Below, piece after piece: positions 48,389 to 56,164 of a DNA stretch of 64,000 nt. Origin of the DNA: a virus. The notes under the pieces were generated by a model. The model saw only the letters and a list, made by a program, of their open reading frames with translations, did not search any database and was not told where the DNA came from. Positions within the stretch are counted from its first letter, which is position 1. Each line of letters starts with the position of its first letter. The stretch is taken from the IMG/VR virus record IMGVR_UViG_3300035698_014118, positions 14,190 through 78,189 of that record. One strand, 5' to 3'. The position numbers and the translations under genes were made by a program.

Positions 48389-48535
48389 ATGAATGAAAAT
48401 TATAAAAATCTGGTGCTTAAGACATACATGGACTTATATGCTAAAGGTGTAATTGCTATGAGTACTTTGATGGATTATGCTAACGAACTATATCCTGATG
48501 AACAGTATTTCAAATGGCAGGATATAGCAATATGA
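48389..48535 (+). CDS. W-tag mini-protein, portal-like fragment (48 aa)
   Basis: Manual translation MNENYKNLVLKTYMDLYAKGVIAMSTLMDY..FKWQDIAI. Confidence 0.65.
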   Translation: MNENYKNLVLKTYMDLYAKGVIAMSTLMDYANELYPDEQYFKWQDIAI

Positions 48536-48723
48536 CATATGAAGAAAAAGAACGAGTTATAGCTGCTGCTTTAGTAGAATCCAAGAAGAATAAATTTTCT
48601 TCAATGTATAGTTCTCTTGCTGATAAATTAGTTAGTGTCCAACCGATGCCTTTGCCAAAAGGTCTAATCTACTATATTTATCGTTCAAAAGATGAATTCT
48701 TTTGGCAGGATATGGAAATATGA
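48532..48723 (+). CDS. W-tag mini-protein, capsid-like fragments
   Basis: MTYEEKERVIAAAL..VSVQPMPLPKGLIYY..FFWQDMEI. Confidence 0.7.
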   Translation: MTYEEKERVIAAALVESKKNKFSSMYSSLADKLVSVQPMPLPKGLIYYIYRSKDEFFWQDMEI

Positions 48724-48935
48724 CTTTACATAATAAAATGACTGAGGCCATGTATACTTCTATATACGATTTGTATCCAGAAGTATACGACAATAAACCT
48801 ATGCCAGATAAAAAGAGATTTTTAGAATTATCACTATATATCTTAAAACATGTCAAATACGACAAAGAGCCTGTTTTCGATTTGGTACGGGATTATTGTT
48901 CAGGAAATTTTATATGGATAAACATAAAAGACTAG
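48720..48935 (+). CDS. W-tag mini-protein
   Basis: Ends FIWINIKD. Confidence 0.6.
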   Translation: MTLHNKMTEAMYTSIYDLYPEVYDNKPMPDKKRFLELSLYILKHVKYDKEPVFDLVRDYCSGNFIWINIKD

Positions 48936-49105
48936 ATGGTAATTGGGAAATACATATGATATCTGCTCGTCAAACAGGTAAAACTACTTTGATGGAAGAT
49001 GTAATGAAATTAGCTTTTAAGAAAATGGGCGATTATCCTGTTTCCGGTTGGTATAAGAATGGCATTAAAAAGACGGATTTTGTATGGAAAACAATGAAAA
49101 TATAA
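48914..49105 (+). CDS. W-tag mini-protein with a terminase-type Walker A
   Basis: ARQTGKTT..FVWKTMKI; start may be 48956. Confidence 0.65.
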   Translation: MDKHKRLDGNWEIHMISARQTGKTTLMEDVMKLAFKKMGDYPVSGWYKNGIKKTDFVWKTMKI

Positions 49106-49233
49106 AGAAACCTGAACTTTTACCATGGGGCGAAAAAGAAGATGCATTGATGCTATTAGCTAATCGGTTGCTGGTATATAAGTTTATGATAAAGTACCCT
49201 GATTGGTTTTTTTGGAGAGAAATGGTAATATGA
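49084..49233 (+). CDS. W-tag mini-protein (49 aa)
   Basis: Manual translation ends WFFWREMVI. Confidence 0.6.
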   Translation: MENNENIKKPELLPWGEKEDALMLLANRLLVYKFMIKYPDWFFWREMVI

Positions 49234-49412
49234 ATAAACCATATACAAATGGTGTTAAAGCATCGGAGCTTCTGCCTGTCAAGTTCTTTTATGCTCCATA
49301 TATACCGCTTCTAACTACTTCTACACTAAACATTGAAGACTTGAGAACAAGAACGAAATATGGATTGAAATTATTAAAAGAAACGTTCGTTTGGAGAGAA
49401 ATGACGATATGA
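49230..49412 (+). CDS. W-tag mini-protein, T4 gp23-like fragment
   Basis: FFYAPYIPL..TKYG..FVWREMTI. Confidence 0.7.
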   Translation: MNKPYTNGVKASELLPVKFFYAPYIPLLTTSTLNIEDLRTRTKYGLKLLKETFVWREMTI

Positions 49413-49621
49413 CAGAAACTGCGTCCTATGATAAATGCTATGGCGAAGAATCTAATTATTTAAAAACTATGCTACCTAATGAAAGACATCTATTAATACA
49501 ATATTGGGAATCTCAGGCTTATAGTGGTAGCTACGTTGGAGATATTGGGTCAATGATAAGAGAAGAGCAGCTTAAGGTTCTTCGAAAAGGATTCTTTGAA
49601 TGGAAAAAGATGACGACATAA
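49409..49621 (+). CDS. W-tag mini-protein
   Basis: Ends FEWKKMTT. Confidence 0.6.
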   Translation: MTETASYDKCYGEESNYLKTMLPNERHLLIQYWESQAYSGSYVGDIGSMIREEQLKVLRKGFFEWKKMTT

Positions 49622-49761
49622 ACCCAGTTTTTGATATTAACGTTCAACATTGGACTATCAAAAGAATAAGCAATTACGAAGAAAAAGACGGTGTTATTGG
49701 AGCTAATTACTCTGTTAGATATGAACCTATAATTTTTAAATGGAAGGATATCTCTGTATGA
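49600..49761 (+). CDS. W-tag mini-protein (53 aa)
   Basis: Manual translation ends FKWKDISV. Confidence 0.6.
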   Translation: MEKDDDINPVFDINVQHWTIKRISNYEEKDGVIGANYSVRYEPIIFKWKDISV

Positions 49762-50177
49762 AAACTGATGACAAACCTGTTCGCGTAGGAACTGCTATTA
49801 TTCTTATTGATGATCAGAATAGAGTTCTGCTTGGTAAACGTTGTGGTAAATTCATGCCGGGAGTTTATGCTTTGCCGGGAGGTAAACCTGATTTCGGAGA
49901 ATGTCCAAAAAAAGCAGTCATCAGAGAGACGAAAGAAGAAACTGGACTGAAGATATTCGATGTTCAGGAATTTACATGGATCAATAATTTTATGCCTCAG
50001 CATGATATGCATTACGTAACTCTGTTCTATGTATCTATTATCTATAGCGGTACGCTTGAAGTAAAAGAAAAAGACAAATGTGAAAAATGGGATTGGTATA
50101 GTCAAGATAAGCTTCCTAATCCTATGTGGCCAGGATTAGAAAGAATCCTAATTAAGTATTGGGAAGAAAATGGATGA
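49758..50177 (+). CDS. NUDIX hydrolase (MutT/NUDT15-like)
   Basis: PGGKPDFGE..AVIRETKEETG; EKDKCEKWDW. Confidence 0.9.
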   Translation: MKTDDKPVRVGTAIILIDDQNRVLLGKRCGKFMPGVYALPGGKPDFGECPKKAVIRETKEETGLKIFDVQEFTWINNFMPQHDMHYVTLFYVSIIYSGTLEVKEKDKCEKWDWYSQDKLPNPMWPGLERILIKYWEENG

Positions 50178-50352
50178 GTCTTTAAAAAACCGTATAGACG
50201 AAATACTTTTTCCTAAGCTTTTATATGATATATCAGAGATGCAAGATAAAGCTCTTTTGGAAGCAATGTCGATGACTGAGTTTACTAGAAGACAAATTTC
50301 TCAGATATTCTATTCTAGAGATTTTTTCTTTTGGAAAGATATAGTATTATGA
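50170..50352 (+). CDS. W-tag mini-protein
   Basis: Ends FFWKDIVL. Confidence 0.6.
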   Translation: MDESLKNRIDEILFPKLLYDISEMQDKALLEAMSMTEFTRRQISQIFYSRDFFFWKDIVL

Positions 50353-54731: not shown

Positions 54732-54733
54732 GA

Positions 54734-54757
54734 GCCGGTGTGGCGGAATTGGCATAC
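54734..54757 (+). pseudogene. 5' half of a disrupted tRNA-Leu
   Basis: GCCGGTG-TGGCGGAATTGGCATAC; pairs with the 3' half at 55537-55561. Confidence 0.75.
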
Positions 54758-54800
54758 AATATTATTAAGGAAGTATGACTTTTCTGTTGAAGAAATAGAT

Positions 54801-55538
54801 ATGAGAACATTACAAGAAAAAGAACAGATATTACGTCTTAAAGCATTGGGATGGAATAATTGTAAAATAGCAAGAGAAGTTGATATACCACGAGGCACCA
54901 TTCGTGATATATGTAAAAAATACAAAGCCGGTGTATCCCAATTGGCAGAGGAGACCGATTCAAGCTCGGTTTGTTGGAGGTTCGATTCCTCTCACCGGTA
55001 TTATTATTACTATCTCCTTGGAATATACCTTGGAGATGGATGTATAAGTCAAGACAGAAGATGTCTTAAACTACGAATATTTCTGGACAAAAAATATCCT
55101 GTCATAATAGACGAAGTTAAAAAAGCAATTAACGTAGTAATGCCTAAAAATAAAGTTGGTATTCTTGATAAACATACTTTTGTAGAAATATATTGTTTTT
55201 CTAAGTTTTGGGATTGTGTTTTCCCTCAACATGGCAAAGGCAAGAAGCATTTGAGAAAAATCAAATTGACAAATTTACAAACTAGAAACATGGATGATAA
55301 GGCGATACTCAGGGGGTTGATTCATTCTGACGGATGTAGAGATTTGAATTGGGTAAATAAAATAAGTTATCCACGATACAGTTTAAGTAATCTATCTTCT
55401 GATATACATGAGATATTTCAAAAATCTTGCAGGAAATTAAATATAAACTACACAACAAATAGTACAGGTAACTGTACTTGGATTGCGAAGCGAAAAGATG
55501 TCAAGTTAATGGATGAATTTATAGGTTCAAAAAAATGA
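54801..55538 (+). CDS. HTH plus LAGLIDADG-like endonuclease with an in-frame embedded tRNA
   Basis: KIAREVDIPRGTIRD; LLGIYLGDGCI; ILRGLIHSDGCR. Confidence 0.8.
   Translation: MRTLQEKEQILRLKALGWNNCKIAREVDIPRGTIRDICKKYKAGVSQLAEETDSSSVCWRFDSSHRYYYYYLLGIYLGDGCISQDRRCLKLRIFLDKKYPVIIDEVKKAINVVMPKNKVGILDKHTFVEIYCFSKFWDCVFPQHGKGKKHLRKIKLTNLQTRNMDDKAILRGLIHSDGCRDLNWVNKISYPRYSLSNLSSDIHEIFQKSCRKLNINYTTNSTGNCTWIAKRKDVKLMDEFIGSKK
54927..55000 (+). tRNA. tRNA-Leu(CAA), short variable arm, inside a CDS
   Basis: GCCGGTG/CACCGGT-A; ACCGA-TTCAAGC-TCGGT; GGAGG-TTCGATT-CCTCT. Confidence 0.85.
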
Positions 55539-55561
55539 GGGTTCGATTCCCTCCACCGGTA
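55537..55561 (+). pseudogene. 3' half (T arm and acceptor) of the disrupted tRNA-Leu
   Basis: GAGGG-TTCGATT-CCCTC-CACCGGT-A. Confidence 0.75.
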
Positions 55562-55563
55562 TT

Positions 55564-55776
55564 ATGAAAGCTAGAGACCATCTTTATGTAACGCCTAATA
55601 CAAAAGAAGATTGGATAGAGAATCATTGGAAAAATCGGTCTCTCGATTTTTTGCAATTTATATTTAGTGTATCTAGAGATTGCCAACAAAAAACTTGGAT
55701 TGGTGAGTATATAGAATCTCGCTTACAATCAGAAGGTTATGAAAACCATCTAACATGGAAAGATATAGCAATATGA
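55564..55776 (+). CDS. W-tag mini-protein
   Basis: Ends LTWKDIAI. Confidence 0.6.
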   Translation: MKARDHLYVTPNTKEDWIENHWKNRSLDFLQFIFSVSRDCQQKTWIGEYIESRLQSEGYENHLTWKDIAI

Positions 55777-55958
55777 ACGGCCATATGCCAATAAGAAGTG
55801 ATATAACAGTAATACCCGGTTCTTGTTCTAAAAAGAAATTAAATTGGAAAATCACAGAAACAGTAGGAATGGTTATTATAAACGATGCTGCCATAGAAAC
55901 GATAGATTTTTATTCTGGTGATCCTCTACATCTATACTGGGAGGATATGACTATATAA
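55773..55958 (+). CDS. W-tag mini-protein homologous to the MCP C-terminus
   Basis: PIRSDITVIP..VGMVIINDAAI; ends LYWEDMTI. Confidence 0.8.
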   Translation: MNGHMPIRSDITVIPGSCSKKKLNWKITETVGMVIINDAAIETIDFYSGDPLHLYWEDMTI

Positions 55959-55969
55959 GGAGTTTTATT

Positions 55970-56164
55970 ATGAGTTGGCTTATTCCTTTAACTGACAGAG
56001 CAAAGAAATATAGTATTAAATATATCAGATATTCTGGAAAAATAAACTCTAAAAAAGAAGCTAAAGAAATTGAAGATATGTTCATTAATTCTATAGCATC
56101 GGAAATAACCAAAGAAATTTATGGTGCTGCTAATGCATTCATTTGGGTAGACATGGAAATTTAA
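55970..56164 (+). CDS. W-tag mini-protein
   Basis: SIASEITKEI; ends FIWVDMEI. Confidence 0.65.
   Translation: MSWLIPLTDRAKKYSIKYIRYSGKINSKKEAKEIEDMFINSIASEITKEIYGAANAFIWVDMEI

What the first reader, a model, noticed from the sequence alone, without database searches (positions are those of the whole stretch)
48532..56164. Tagged fragments of a foreign, T4 gp23-type capsid protein
Seen: LADKLVSVQPMPLPKGLIYY (48532), FFYAPYIPL..RTKYG (49230) and EIEDMFINSIASEITKEI (55970). Known: gp23-family capsids carry VQPM..P.GLIF, FY[AC]PY[IV]PL..TRYG and E.EL...LS.EI..EI motifs. This phage's own MCP has none of them. Inference: the array samples capsid pieces from other phage lineages, like a peptide-level memory of competitors or a broad decoy set.
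Basis: partly seen in the sequence, partly recalled or inferred. Interest (0 to 1): 0.82.

Follow-up and report, generated by a model that had tools for sequence, protein, structure and literature searches.

The report
Tagged mini-proteins carrying capsid-protein pieces
A very large salt-lake phage has 31 tiny genes that end in the same eight-residue tag; four of them carry short pieces of capsid protein, two of a T4-like (gp23) kind that this phage group does not use, and no such arrangement has been described.

Summary
Partly confirmed.

Two ORFs carry real gp23-type capsid segments. ORF 48532-48723 holds the VQPM segment and ORF 49230-49412 holds the YAPY...RYG segment. Pfam Gp23 is the top hit for both (E 0.008 and 0.011). 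Two independent gp23 profiles give E about 5e-6 to 6e-5. A six-frame scan of the whole 78-kb contig finds only these two ORFs. The third ORF (55970-56164) is not significant (E 0.52).

The phage's own capsid protein (41133-42002) is a short HK97/encapsulin-like type. Complete relatives have no gp23 gene, so the pieces are foreign in type. They are not pseudogene debris.

The same array also holds two pieces of the phage's own capsid type (50704-50832 and 55773-55958). These are re-coded at synonymous sites while the protein sequence is kept.

My reading is a "capsid segment plus common handle" class of mini-proteins whose reader and target are unknown. The competitor-memory idea is untested.

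Earlier notes of this scan describe tagged capsid pieces in other huge phages. I also found untagged pieces of its own capsid protein in the published huge phage LR756511.

The parts
48532..48723 (+). Mini-gene (63 aa). Residues 29-50 (nt 48616-48681) are LADKLVSVQPMPLPKGLIYYIY, matching the most conserved N-terminal-quarter segment of gp23-type capsid proteins. Residues 4-14 weakly resemble the N-terminal helix of the phage's own capsid protein. Tag FFWQDMEI, then stop. The start ATG overlaps the previous stop (ATGA).
   Evidence: Pfam Gp23 E 0.0082. Local gp23 profiles E 1.8e-5 and 4.9e-6. Six-frame scan. tblastn to LR756508 and LR756511. Weak own-type helix, z 3.3.
49230..49412 (+). Mini-gene (60 aa). 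Residues 5-52 (nt 49242-49385) match the C-terminal FYAPY[IV]PL...[TK][RK]YG.KLL segment of gp23-type capsid proteins, with a deletion of about 5 residues. Tag FVWREMTI, then stop. ATGA overlap with the previous gene.
   Evidence: Pfam Gp23 E 0.011. Local profiles E 6.5e-5 and 6.5e-6. tblastn: 26 records, all annotated ones major head/capsid protein. The LR756511 capsid protein aligns over its residues 427-486 at 41% identity.
55970..56164 (+). Mini-gene (64 aa) with tag FIWVDMEI. The claimed gp23 middle motif (EIEDMFINSIASEITKEI) is not significant.
   Evidence: No Gp23 hit in Pfam. No capsid hit in tblastn at E<=10. Diverse gp23 profile E 0.52, 0.5 bits, aligned at the named motif.
50704..50832 (+). 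Mini-gene (42 aa). Residues 7-30 (nt 50722-50793) are a diverged copy of the phage's own capsid protein at residues 73-96 (E-loop region), followed by tag FVWQDITI.
   Evidence: blastp 60% identity over 20 aa, E 9e-5. Own-capsid profile E 1.1e-5. z 11.5 against shuffles. Re-coded at nucleotide level.
55773..55958 (+). Mini-gene (61 aa). Residues 3-47 (nt 55779-55913) are a diverged copy of the last 45 residues of the phage's own capsid protein (three C-terminal strands), then a 14-residue extension ending in tag LYWEDMTI.
   Evidence: blastp 53% identity, E 5e-10. Profile E 4.5e-12. z 19. 50% nucleotide identity; 6 of 23 identical residues use the same codon.
48389..62721 (+). The array: 31 mini-genes (31-117 aa) ending in [FL]-x-W-x-x-[MI]-x-[IV]-stop. 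They are interspersed with tRNA genes, homing endonuclease genes, a NUDIX gene and a split UDP-glucose dehydrogenase.
   Evidence: Third codon positions and stop codons vary and the downstream sequence is not conserved, so the conservation is at the peptide level. tRNAs.
41133..42002 (+). The phage's own major capsid protein (289 aa, P0001), a short HK97/encapsulin-like type, not gp23-type.
   Evidence: No Pfam family. 70-91% identical in at least 114 viral contigs, some up to 548 kb. Foldseek matches HK97-fold capsids and encapsulins at probability 1.00.
48342..48382 (+). Perfect 19-bp hairpin between the radical SAM gene and the first mini-gene. It marks the upstream boundary of the array.

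Best explanation
Shown: ORFs 48532-48723 and 49230-49412 are ordinary members of a 31-gene array of tightly packed, often ATGA-overlapped mini-genes. Their products share a C-terminal peptide tag that is conserved at the protein level.

Shown: their bodies contain short, diverged copies of the best-conserved segments of gp23-type major capsid proteins. One is the N-terminal-quarter VQPM segment. The other is the C-terminal YAPY...RYG segment.

Shown: the phage builds its head from a different, short HK97/encapsulin-like capsid protein, and complete relatives lack any gp23 gene, so these segments are foreign in type.

Shown: two further array members carry equivalent cut-outs of the phage's own capsid type (E-loop and C-terminal strands). 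These are re-coded at synonymous sites while the amino-acid sequence is kept.

Inferred: these four genes form a 'capsid segment plus common handle' class. The segment would act as a free-standing mimic of a capsid-protein recognition or contact element (bait). The tag, a likely beta-strand with pattern Phi-x-W-x-x-Phi-x-Phi-COOH, would dock all array members onto one shared reader.

Inferred: because both own-type and foreign-type capsid segments are displayed, the likeliest target recognises capsid proteins of more than one lineage. Candidates are a host capsid-sensing defence or a capsid-handling factor, rather than the phage's own shell alone.
For: - The tag is peptide-level. The first two codon positions of F, W and M/I are invariant, while third positions, stop codons and the downstream sequence vary.
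- gp23 homology of the two bodies is supported.
- Both bodies hit the same 491-aa gp23-type capsid protein of LR756511.
- gp23-type is foreign to this group.
- Own-type pieces.
- Every capsid-like hit on the contig outside the capsid gene itself lies in a tagged mini-gene.
- The own-type pieces have 50-57% nucleotide identity and 33% GC against 47% in the capsid gene. Only 6 of 23 and 3 of 12 identical residues share a codon. Amino-acid identity is still 51-60%.
- They are equally distant from all 77 orthologues, which are 72-100% alike in these segments. This fits either long retention under a different constraint or origin from a diverged donor capsid protein.
- The retained gp23 segments rank 1, 3 and 6 among the most conserved 20-residue windows of the family.
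- The first of these appears to be the region reviewed as Gol, a 29-residue peptide in the first quarter of T4 gp23 that binds EF-Tu and is called the most conserved part of gp23 (PMC3014915).
- Capsid proteins are frequent triggers of bacterial defences (PMC9712102; PMC13581612).
- Independent parallel: LR756511 encodes at least five small ORFs holding pieces of its own gp23-type capsid protein. One (588011-588310, E 7e-11) holds the same C-terminal segment and ends at nearly the same point as ORF 49230.
Against: - No reader, target or expression data exist.
- Only 4 of 31 bodies have a demonstrable capsid origin. The other 27 have none detectable in this contig, in a complete relative or in LR756511.
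- Profile searches can only see the most conserved segments, so 'the best-conserved segments are kept' is partly a detection bias.
- The gp23 matches are short (22 and about 48 residues) and below Pfam's gathering score.
- No relative with the array was found. Selection on the gp23-type pieces could therefore not be measured, and a recent capture from a diverged donor cannot be excluded for any piece.
- A ligand-like decoy could activate a sensor rather than block it.
- Only about 17% of the genome is in hand.
Confidence: 0.45

Rival explanations
1. By-products without a function of their own. The array is a fast-evolving family of small proteins whose function lies in the tag or elsewhere. 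Bits of capsid genes, own or from co-infecting phages, were spliced into some bodies by illegitimate recombination or cassette transfer and simply persist. For example, a ready-made capsid-piece gene could have come from a gp23-type huge phage.
For: 27 of 31 bodies show no capsid origin. The array sits in a region rich in tRNA genes and homing endonucleases, which promote rearrangement. gp23-type huge phages do make small ORFs from their own capsid protein, so donors exist. Atlas models of the two mini-proteins queried (49230 and 55970) have low confidence.
Against: All capsid-like fragments on the contig are in frame, in tagged ORFs, and none lies elsewhere or in another frame. The own-type pieces keep 51-60% amino-acid identity although synonymous sites look randomised. 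The same C-terminal segment with nearly the same end point recurs independently in LR756511.
Confidence: 0.25
2. Weapon against co-infecting phages. The fragments are dominant-negative pieces that poison capsid assembly of rival gp23-type phages and of rival relatives, with the tag adding a common effector function.
For: The gp23-type pieces are foreign in type to this phage. They are contact-rich, highly conserved segments. gp23-type huge phages exist in public metagenomes.
Against: The own-type pieces would be expected to interfere with the phage's own shell as well. There is no evidence that gp23-type phages share this host or habitat. No assembly test has been done.
Confidence: 0.15
3. Address label for packaging. 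The C-terminal tag loads all 31 mini-proteins into the phage head, like encapsulin cargo-loading peptides or the T4 capsid-targeting sequence. They would then be injected with the DNA, and the capsid likeness of a few bodies would be secondary.
For: A short shared terminal peptide sits on otherwise unrelated small proteins. The shell protein is of encapsulin-like size and fold, and encapsulin cargo uses C-terminal peptides (general knowledge).
Against: The tag has no sequence likeness to known cargo peptides. The array lies outside the head-gene block. Relatives with 70-91% identical shell proteins have no such tags.
Confidence: 0.1
4. Remnants of one decayed gp23 gene (a pseudogene chopped into ORFs) or pure chance resemblance.
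For: The two confirmed pieces lie in N-to-C order, 0.5 kb apart.
Against: Three tagged ORFs without any gp23 signal lie between the two pieces. The motif spacing is about 640 nt against about 1,000 nt in real genes, and the pieces are in different frames. No other gp23 trace exists in any frame of the contig. Each piece has its own start, tag and stop. Chance is excluded by two independent profiles, and by two of 31 peptides hitting the same one of 24,736 Pfam families.
Confidence: 0.05

Closest known systems
T4-type major capsid protein gp23 (Pfam PF07068), including huge-phage versions such as the 491-aa protein of LR756511
   Same: The two ORFs carry the family's hallmark segments, [IL]A..[IL]VSVQP[ML]..P.GL[IV][FY] and [FY]Y[AC]PY[IV]PL...[TK][RK]YG.KLL, aligned at the right profile positions.
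   Different: Only 22 and about 48 residues are present, on separate 60-residue proteins. The scores are below the family threshold. They cannot form a capsid fold and are fused to an unrelated tag.
Gol peptide of T4 gp23 (trigger of the Lit protease through EF-Tu)
   Same: A short stretch of the most conserved N-terminal-quarter region of gp23 acting on its own as a peptide. ORF 48532 carries what appears to be the homologous stretch.
   Different: Gol is part of the full capsid protein and harms the phage. Here the stretch is a separate gene in a phage without gp23. Binding to EF-Tu or any sensor is untested. The residue numbers of Gol were not checked here.
Capsid-targeting sequence of T-even internal proteins and cargo-loading peptides of encapsulins
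   Same: A short common terminal peptide on otherwise unrelated small proteins. The shell protein is an HK97 fold of encapsulin-like size.
   Different: The T4 sequence is N-terminal and is cleaved off. Encapsulin peptides have other sequences. Nothing shows that this tag binds the shell, and close relatives of the shell protein lack the tag.
Tag-plus-capsid/sheath-piece mini-proteins noted by this scan in other huge phages (e1-5693726, e1-5633686, e1-5611239), and the capsid-piece ORFs of LR756511 found here
   Same: Small phage proteins that join a cut-out of a virion protein to a shared short module.
   Different: The modules differ: W-x-K-E-G-F, PTRFER, and CxxC...CxxC N-termini in LR756511. 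Those pieces are of the phage's own proteins. Here two pieces are of a capsid type that the phage does not use.
Tandem arrays of small paralogous genes in jumbo phages
   Same: Dozens of back-to-back small genes in a variable genome region.
   Different: The bodies here are mostly unrelated to one another. Only the eight C-terminal residues are shared.

Membership tests
Gp23 major capsid protein family (PF07068) | Match to the family profile at its conserved segments | tested here: met
   ORF 48532: E 0.0082, profile 18-43. ORF 49230: E 0.011, profile 302-339. Confirmed with two home-built profiles and a six-frame scan.
Gp23 major capsid protein family (PF07068) | Score at or above Pfam's gathering threshold (24.4 bits) | tested here: not met
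   16.0 and 15.6 bits. The ORFs are homologous fragments, not family members in the functional sense.
Gp23 major capsid protein family (PF07068) | Full-length capsid body covering most of the 376-position profile | tested here: not met
   26 and 38 profile positions are covered, and the proteins are 63 and 60 aa long.
Gp23 major capsid protein family (PF07068) | Third ORF (55970-56164) matches the middle E.EL...L..EI..EI helix | tested here: inconclusive
   It aligns at that place but with 0.5 bits, E 0.52. No Pfam or tblastn support.
Tagged mini-gene array of this phage | C-terminal [FL]-x-W-x-x-[MI]-x-[IV] directly before the stop, + strand, within 48389-62721 | tested here: met
   All three ORFs carry it. 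The tail profile finds 30 of the 31 in the phage's own contig and only chance-level hits in relatives.
Pseudogene remnants of a single gp23 gene | Collinear pieces with native spacing, further remnants between them, and no independent gene signals | tested here: not met
   Three unrelated tagged ORFs lie between the pieces. Spacing and frames are wrong. No other trace exists in six frames.
Pseudogene remnants of a single gp23 gene | Evolution without selection | tested here: inconclusive
   No related array was found with which to measure dN/dS. The analogous own-type pieces keep their protein sequence despite re-coding, but a recent capture from a diverged donor is not excluded.
Terminal address tags (T4 capsid-targeting sequence; encapsulin cargo-loading peptide) | Short shared terminal peptide on unrelated small proteins | tested here: met
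Terminal address tags (T4 capsid-targeting sequence; encapsulin cargo-loading peptide) | N-terminal position with protease cleavage (T4), or demonstrated docking on the shell protein (encapsulin) | not testable with these tools
   The tag is C-terminal, so the T4 layout does not apply. Docking needs binding experiments or virion proteomics.
Gol-type capsid peptide | Derived from the most conserved segment in the first quarter of gp23 | tested here: met
   The segment in ORF 48532 is the top-ranked conserved 20-residue window in an alignment of six diverse gp23-type proteins. The review statement is in PMC3014915. The exact Gol residues were not verified.
Gol-type capsid peptide | Binds EF-Tu or triggers a defence protease | not testable with these tools
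   Needs biochemistry.

The most novel reading that the evidence does not exclude
Huge phages carry a previously undescribed class of mini-proteins that display isolated segments of capsid proteins on a short common handle. Here that includes capsid types the phage itself does not use. They would be used to jam or redirect whatever reads capsid proteins in the infected cell, either host capsid-sensing immunity or the assembly line of a co-infecting rival phage.
Probability: 0.25. Interest if true: 0.85.

Novelty: categorically new. Interest (0 to 1): 0.66.

Why it matters
Capsid proteins are now known to be among the main molecules that bacterial immune systems sense. If phages deploy free-standing, tagged copies of the very segments that are most conserved in capsid proteins, this would be a new layer in phage-host or phage-phage conflict. 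It would also give a handle on what sensors and assembly partners actually recognise.

The finding also gives meaning to some of the many unexplained small genes of huge phages. It yields directly testable reagents: 60-residue peptides with and without an 8-residue tag.

Even on the dull reading, it documents that gene fragments of a foreign capsid lineage can be kept as separate reading frames.

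Tried and rejected
- **Tag as a nucleotide repeat or ribosome-binding signal.** Rejected. Conservation follows codon positions.
- **Radical SAM gene (47380-48360) as a modifying enzyme for the tag.** 33 homologues sit in other phage contigs with no tagged ORFs beside them, and a strong hairpin separates the gene from the array. Dropped.
- **Arrays in relatives.** None lies within 10 kb of the capsid gene in 80 loci. None was found in five whole related records with a tail profile, and the control on the phage's own contig finds 30 of 31. None is in the complete G005 or LR756511.
- **Tag derived from the C-terminal strand of gp23.** In ORF 49230 the tag sits where LR756511 has FYARMTI. 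However, the tail profile does not score gp23 C-termini. Dropped as unsupported.
- **Homologues of the gp23-type mini-proteins.** No small-protein homologue was found for ORF 49230 and no longer-protein homologue for ORF 48532.
- **Profile of the paralogue trio 56166/56483/57768 against 1.84 billion representatives.** Only two outside homologues turned up. P0005 ends FQWNEMEK and P0006 ends FVWNTI. They lie on 540-bp and 1,669-bp contigs. Neither was found in viral or metagenome contigs.
- **Complex prediction of the capsid protein with mini-protein 50829-50945.** No verdict.
- **Protein atlas.** No usable hit for ORFs 49230 and 55970.
- **Expression.** No RNA holder is listed.
- **Laying salt-lake contigs.** The sequence is identical across runs, so there was no variation from which to estimate selection.
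- **Sigma-70 promoter scan.** No enrichment.
- **Literature searches for tagged capsid fragments or capsid decoys.** Nothing described.
- **Terminase-like mini-protein 48914-49105 (SARQTGKTT).** Only a generic P-loop hit (AAA_14, E 0.035). No match to the phage's own terminase or to anything in LR756511.

Full report
**What is there**

The window is the last 64 kb of a 78-kb viral contig. CheckV rates it at 17% complete, which implies a phage of roughly 460 kb.

Between 48389 and 62721 the + strand carries 31 small ORFs (31-117 aa) whose products all end in [FL]-x-W-x-x-[MI]-x-[IV], followed by a stop. The motif occurs only four times elsewhere on this strand of the contig and twice on the other strand.

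The conservation follows codons. The first two positions of the F, W and M/I codons are invariant. Third positions vary (TTT/TTC; ATG/ATA/ATC/ATT), all three stop codons occur, and the sequence after the stop is not conserved. So the tag is a peptide feature, not a DNA repeat.

Many neighbours overlap by ATGA, which suggests translational coupling. The array is interrupted by tRNA genes, homing endonuclease genes, a NUDIX gene and a split UDP-glucose dehydrogenase.

**Checking the observation**

For the first two, Pfam's Gp23 family is the top hit: E 0.0082 at profile positions 18-43, and E 0.011 at positions 302-339. The other 28 mini-proteins I scanned give only scattered weak hits, each to a different family. 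Two peptides hitting the same one of 24,736 families is therefore itself improbable.

I built two independent profiles.
- One came from 81 gp23-type capsid proteins of huge phages. It gave E 1.8e-5 and 6.5e-5 for the two ORFs.
- The other came from six diverse members: RB49, S-RIM2, Maribacter phage Molly, RM378, WPEC3 and LR756511. It gave E 4.9e-6 and 6.5e-6.

In both, all other mini-proteins were at noise level.

In tblastn against 50,697 phage records, ORF 49230 matched 26 records, and every annotated match lies under a major head or capsid protein. ORF 48532 matched two published huge phages. Both ORFs hit the same 491-aa gp23-type gene of LR756511.

A six-frame scan of the entire contig with both gp23 profiles returns exactly these two ORFs (E about 6e-4 and 2e-3 to 8e-3) and nothing else.

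The third ORF fails. Pfam gives no Gp23 hit and tblastn gives no capsid hit at E<=10. Two of three is the fair count.

**Is gp23-type foreign here?**

The phage's own capsid protein is ORF 41133-42002 (289 aa). It lies downstream of the terminase gene (18469-20346) and the portal gene (30969-33236).

It has no Pfam family. It is 70-91% identical in at least 114 viral contigs, including genomes of 137-548 kb. Its AlphaFold model has low confidence (mean pLDDT 57), yet it matches HK97-fold capsids and encapsulins with Foldseek probability 1.00.

The complete relatives G005 (488 kb) and G004 contain no gp23-like gene. In the phage's own contig the only match to a gp23-type protein is ORF 49230. 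Conversely, LR756511 has no protein of this phage's capsid type.

So the two capsid types belong to different phage lineages, and 'foreign in type' is supported. The caveat is that 83% of this genome is unseen.

**Not a pseudogene**

The two pieces are 0.5 kb apart in N-to-C order, which could suggest one decayed gene. Several facts argue against that.
- Three tagged ORFs with no gp23 signal lie between them.
- The distance between the motifs is about 640 nt, against about 1,000 nt in real genes.
- The pieces are in different frames.
- Each has its own start, tag and stop.
- No other gp23 trace exists in any frame.

**The array also holds pieces of the phage's own capsid type**

Local blastp and a profile of 77 orthologues show two clear cases.
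- ORF 55773-55958 carries the last 45 residues of the own capsid type (53% identity, E 5e-10; profile E 4.5e-12).
- ORF 50704-50832 carries residues 73-96, the E-loop region (60% identity; profile E 1.1e-5).

ORFs 48532 and 50962 weakly resemble the N-terminal helix (z about 3).

On the whole contig, the own-capsid profile hits only the capsid gene and these two mini-genes.

At the DNA level the pieces are re-coded.
- Nucleotide identity is 50-57%.
- GC is 33%, against 47% in the capsid gene.
- Only 6 of 23 and 3 of 12 identical residues use the same codon.

The pieces are about equally far (50-60%) from all 77 orthologues, which are themselves 72-100% alike in these segments. Either the pieces have been kept for a long time under a constraint different from that of a shell protein, or they were taken from a much more distant capsid gene.

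**What the gp23 pieces are, structurally**

In an alignment of six diverse gp23-type proteins, I ranked 20-residue windows by conservation. The segment in ORF 48532 ranks first. The two halves of the segment in ORF 49230 rank third and sixth.

The first appears to correspond to the region reviewed as Gol. That is a 29-residue peptide in the first quarter of T4 gp23 that binds EF-Tu, activates the Lit protease, and is described as the most conserved part of gp23 (PMC3014915). I did not verify the exact Gol residues.

Capsid proteins are recurrent triggers of bacterial defences such as CapRel (PMC9712102) and Avs7/Dsr1 with EF-Tu (PMC13581612).

One caveat applies. Only highly conserved segments can be recognised after divergence, so the apparent preference for them is partly a detection bias.

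**A parallel in a published huge phage**

Scanning LR756511 in six frames with its own capsid profile revealed at least five additional small ORFs holding pieces of its own gp23-type protein, with E values from 6e-13 to 8e-7.

One of them (588011-588310, E 7e-11) holds the same C-terminal YYCP...TRYGKKLL segment. It ends a few residues after KKLL, just as ORF 49230 does. Several of these ORFs begin with CxxC...CxxC motifs instead of carrying a C-terminal tag.

The complete relative G005 has no such pieces.

Earlier notes of this scan report tag-plus-capsid or tag-plus-sheath pieces in other huge phages, with other tags. I did not check those.

**Distribution**

No related array was found. See Tried and rejected for the searches.

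Two homologues of one paralogue subfamily, both with tag-like ends, exist on tiny metagenome contigs.

The array sequence is present unchanged in salt-lake metagenomes from 2017-2019.

**Interpretation**

The descriptive part is solid. There are two foreign-type and two own-type capsid segments, each on a separate tagged mini-protein.

The mechanism is inferred. I favour a 'bait plus handle' reading (0.45). The capsid segment would mimic a recognition or contact element. The tag would dock all array members to one reader. The target would be something that reads capsid proteins of more than one lineage.

The rivals are:
- functionless by-products in a fast-evolving family (0.25);
- a packaging address label (0.10);
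- pseudogene or chance (0.05).

I found nothing in the literature describing tagged capsid fragments.

Noticed in passing
LR756511.1 588011-588310 (+), 195944-196456 (+), 306668-307396 (-), 430481-430849 (+), 125929-126492 (-); held as loci L142-L171: This published 595-kb phage has at least five small ORFs containing pieces of its own gp23-type capsid protein (E 6e-13 to 8e-7). Several sit behind CxxC...CxxC zinc-ribbon-like N-termini. One holds the same C-terminal segment as window ORF 49230.
   Followed up: partly
window 48914-49105: A tagged mini-protein with SARQTGKTT, which resembles the T4 gp17 Walker A motif. Only a generic P-loop hit was found (AAA_14, E 0.035). It has no match to the phage's own terminase or to anything in LR756511, so a terminase origin is unsupported.
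   Followed up: partly
window 7230-7268, inside ORF 7053-7796: An internal stretch LIDPTILMWQDIELW scores with the tail profile. It shares 8 of 15 residues with the end of mini-protein 50531-50707 (RLIDPVYFEWNDITI). This may be chance or the source of a tag-bearing piece.
   Followed up: no
window 56166-56489, 56483-56818, 57768-57998; and 58636-62128: Two paralogue subfamilies lie inside the array. One is a trio with a W...YY..IR motif, which has two outside homologues (P0005, P0006) that also end in tag-like peptides. The other is a group with a conserved A..CC motif before the tag.
   Followed up: partly
window 48342-48382: A perfect 19-bp inverted repeat lies directly between the radical SAM gene and the first mini-gene. 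It could be a terminator or a processing site.
   Followed up: no
window 47380-48360: This radical SAM gene has homologues at 48-59% identity in at least 33 other large phage contigs, with a conserved C-terminal CLDVCIDYNN motif. Its function is unknown and it is not linked to the array.
   Followed up: partly
window 51831-54067 and 54738-55538: A UDP-glucose dehydrogenase-like gene is interrupted by intein-like halves with a free endonuclease gene between them. Another endonuclease gene sits among tRNA-Leu sequences. Contigs from salt-lake runs join 51197-51203 to 51773 or to 55535, but only through short tRNA-like stretches.
   Followed up: no
window 45744-46640: A phage-encoded protein with a prepilin-type N-terminal methylation motif (PF07963). 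It may hint at the host group.
   Followed up: no
window 34432-40464: A 2,010-residue ORF with no Pfam family lies between the portal and capsid genes.
   Followed up: no
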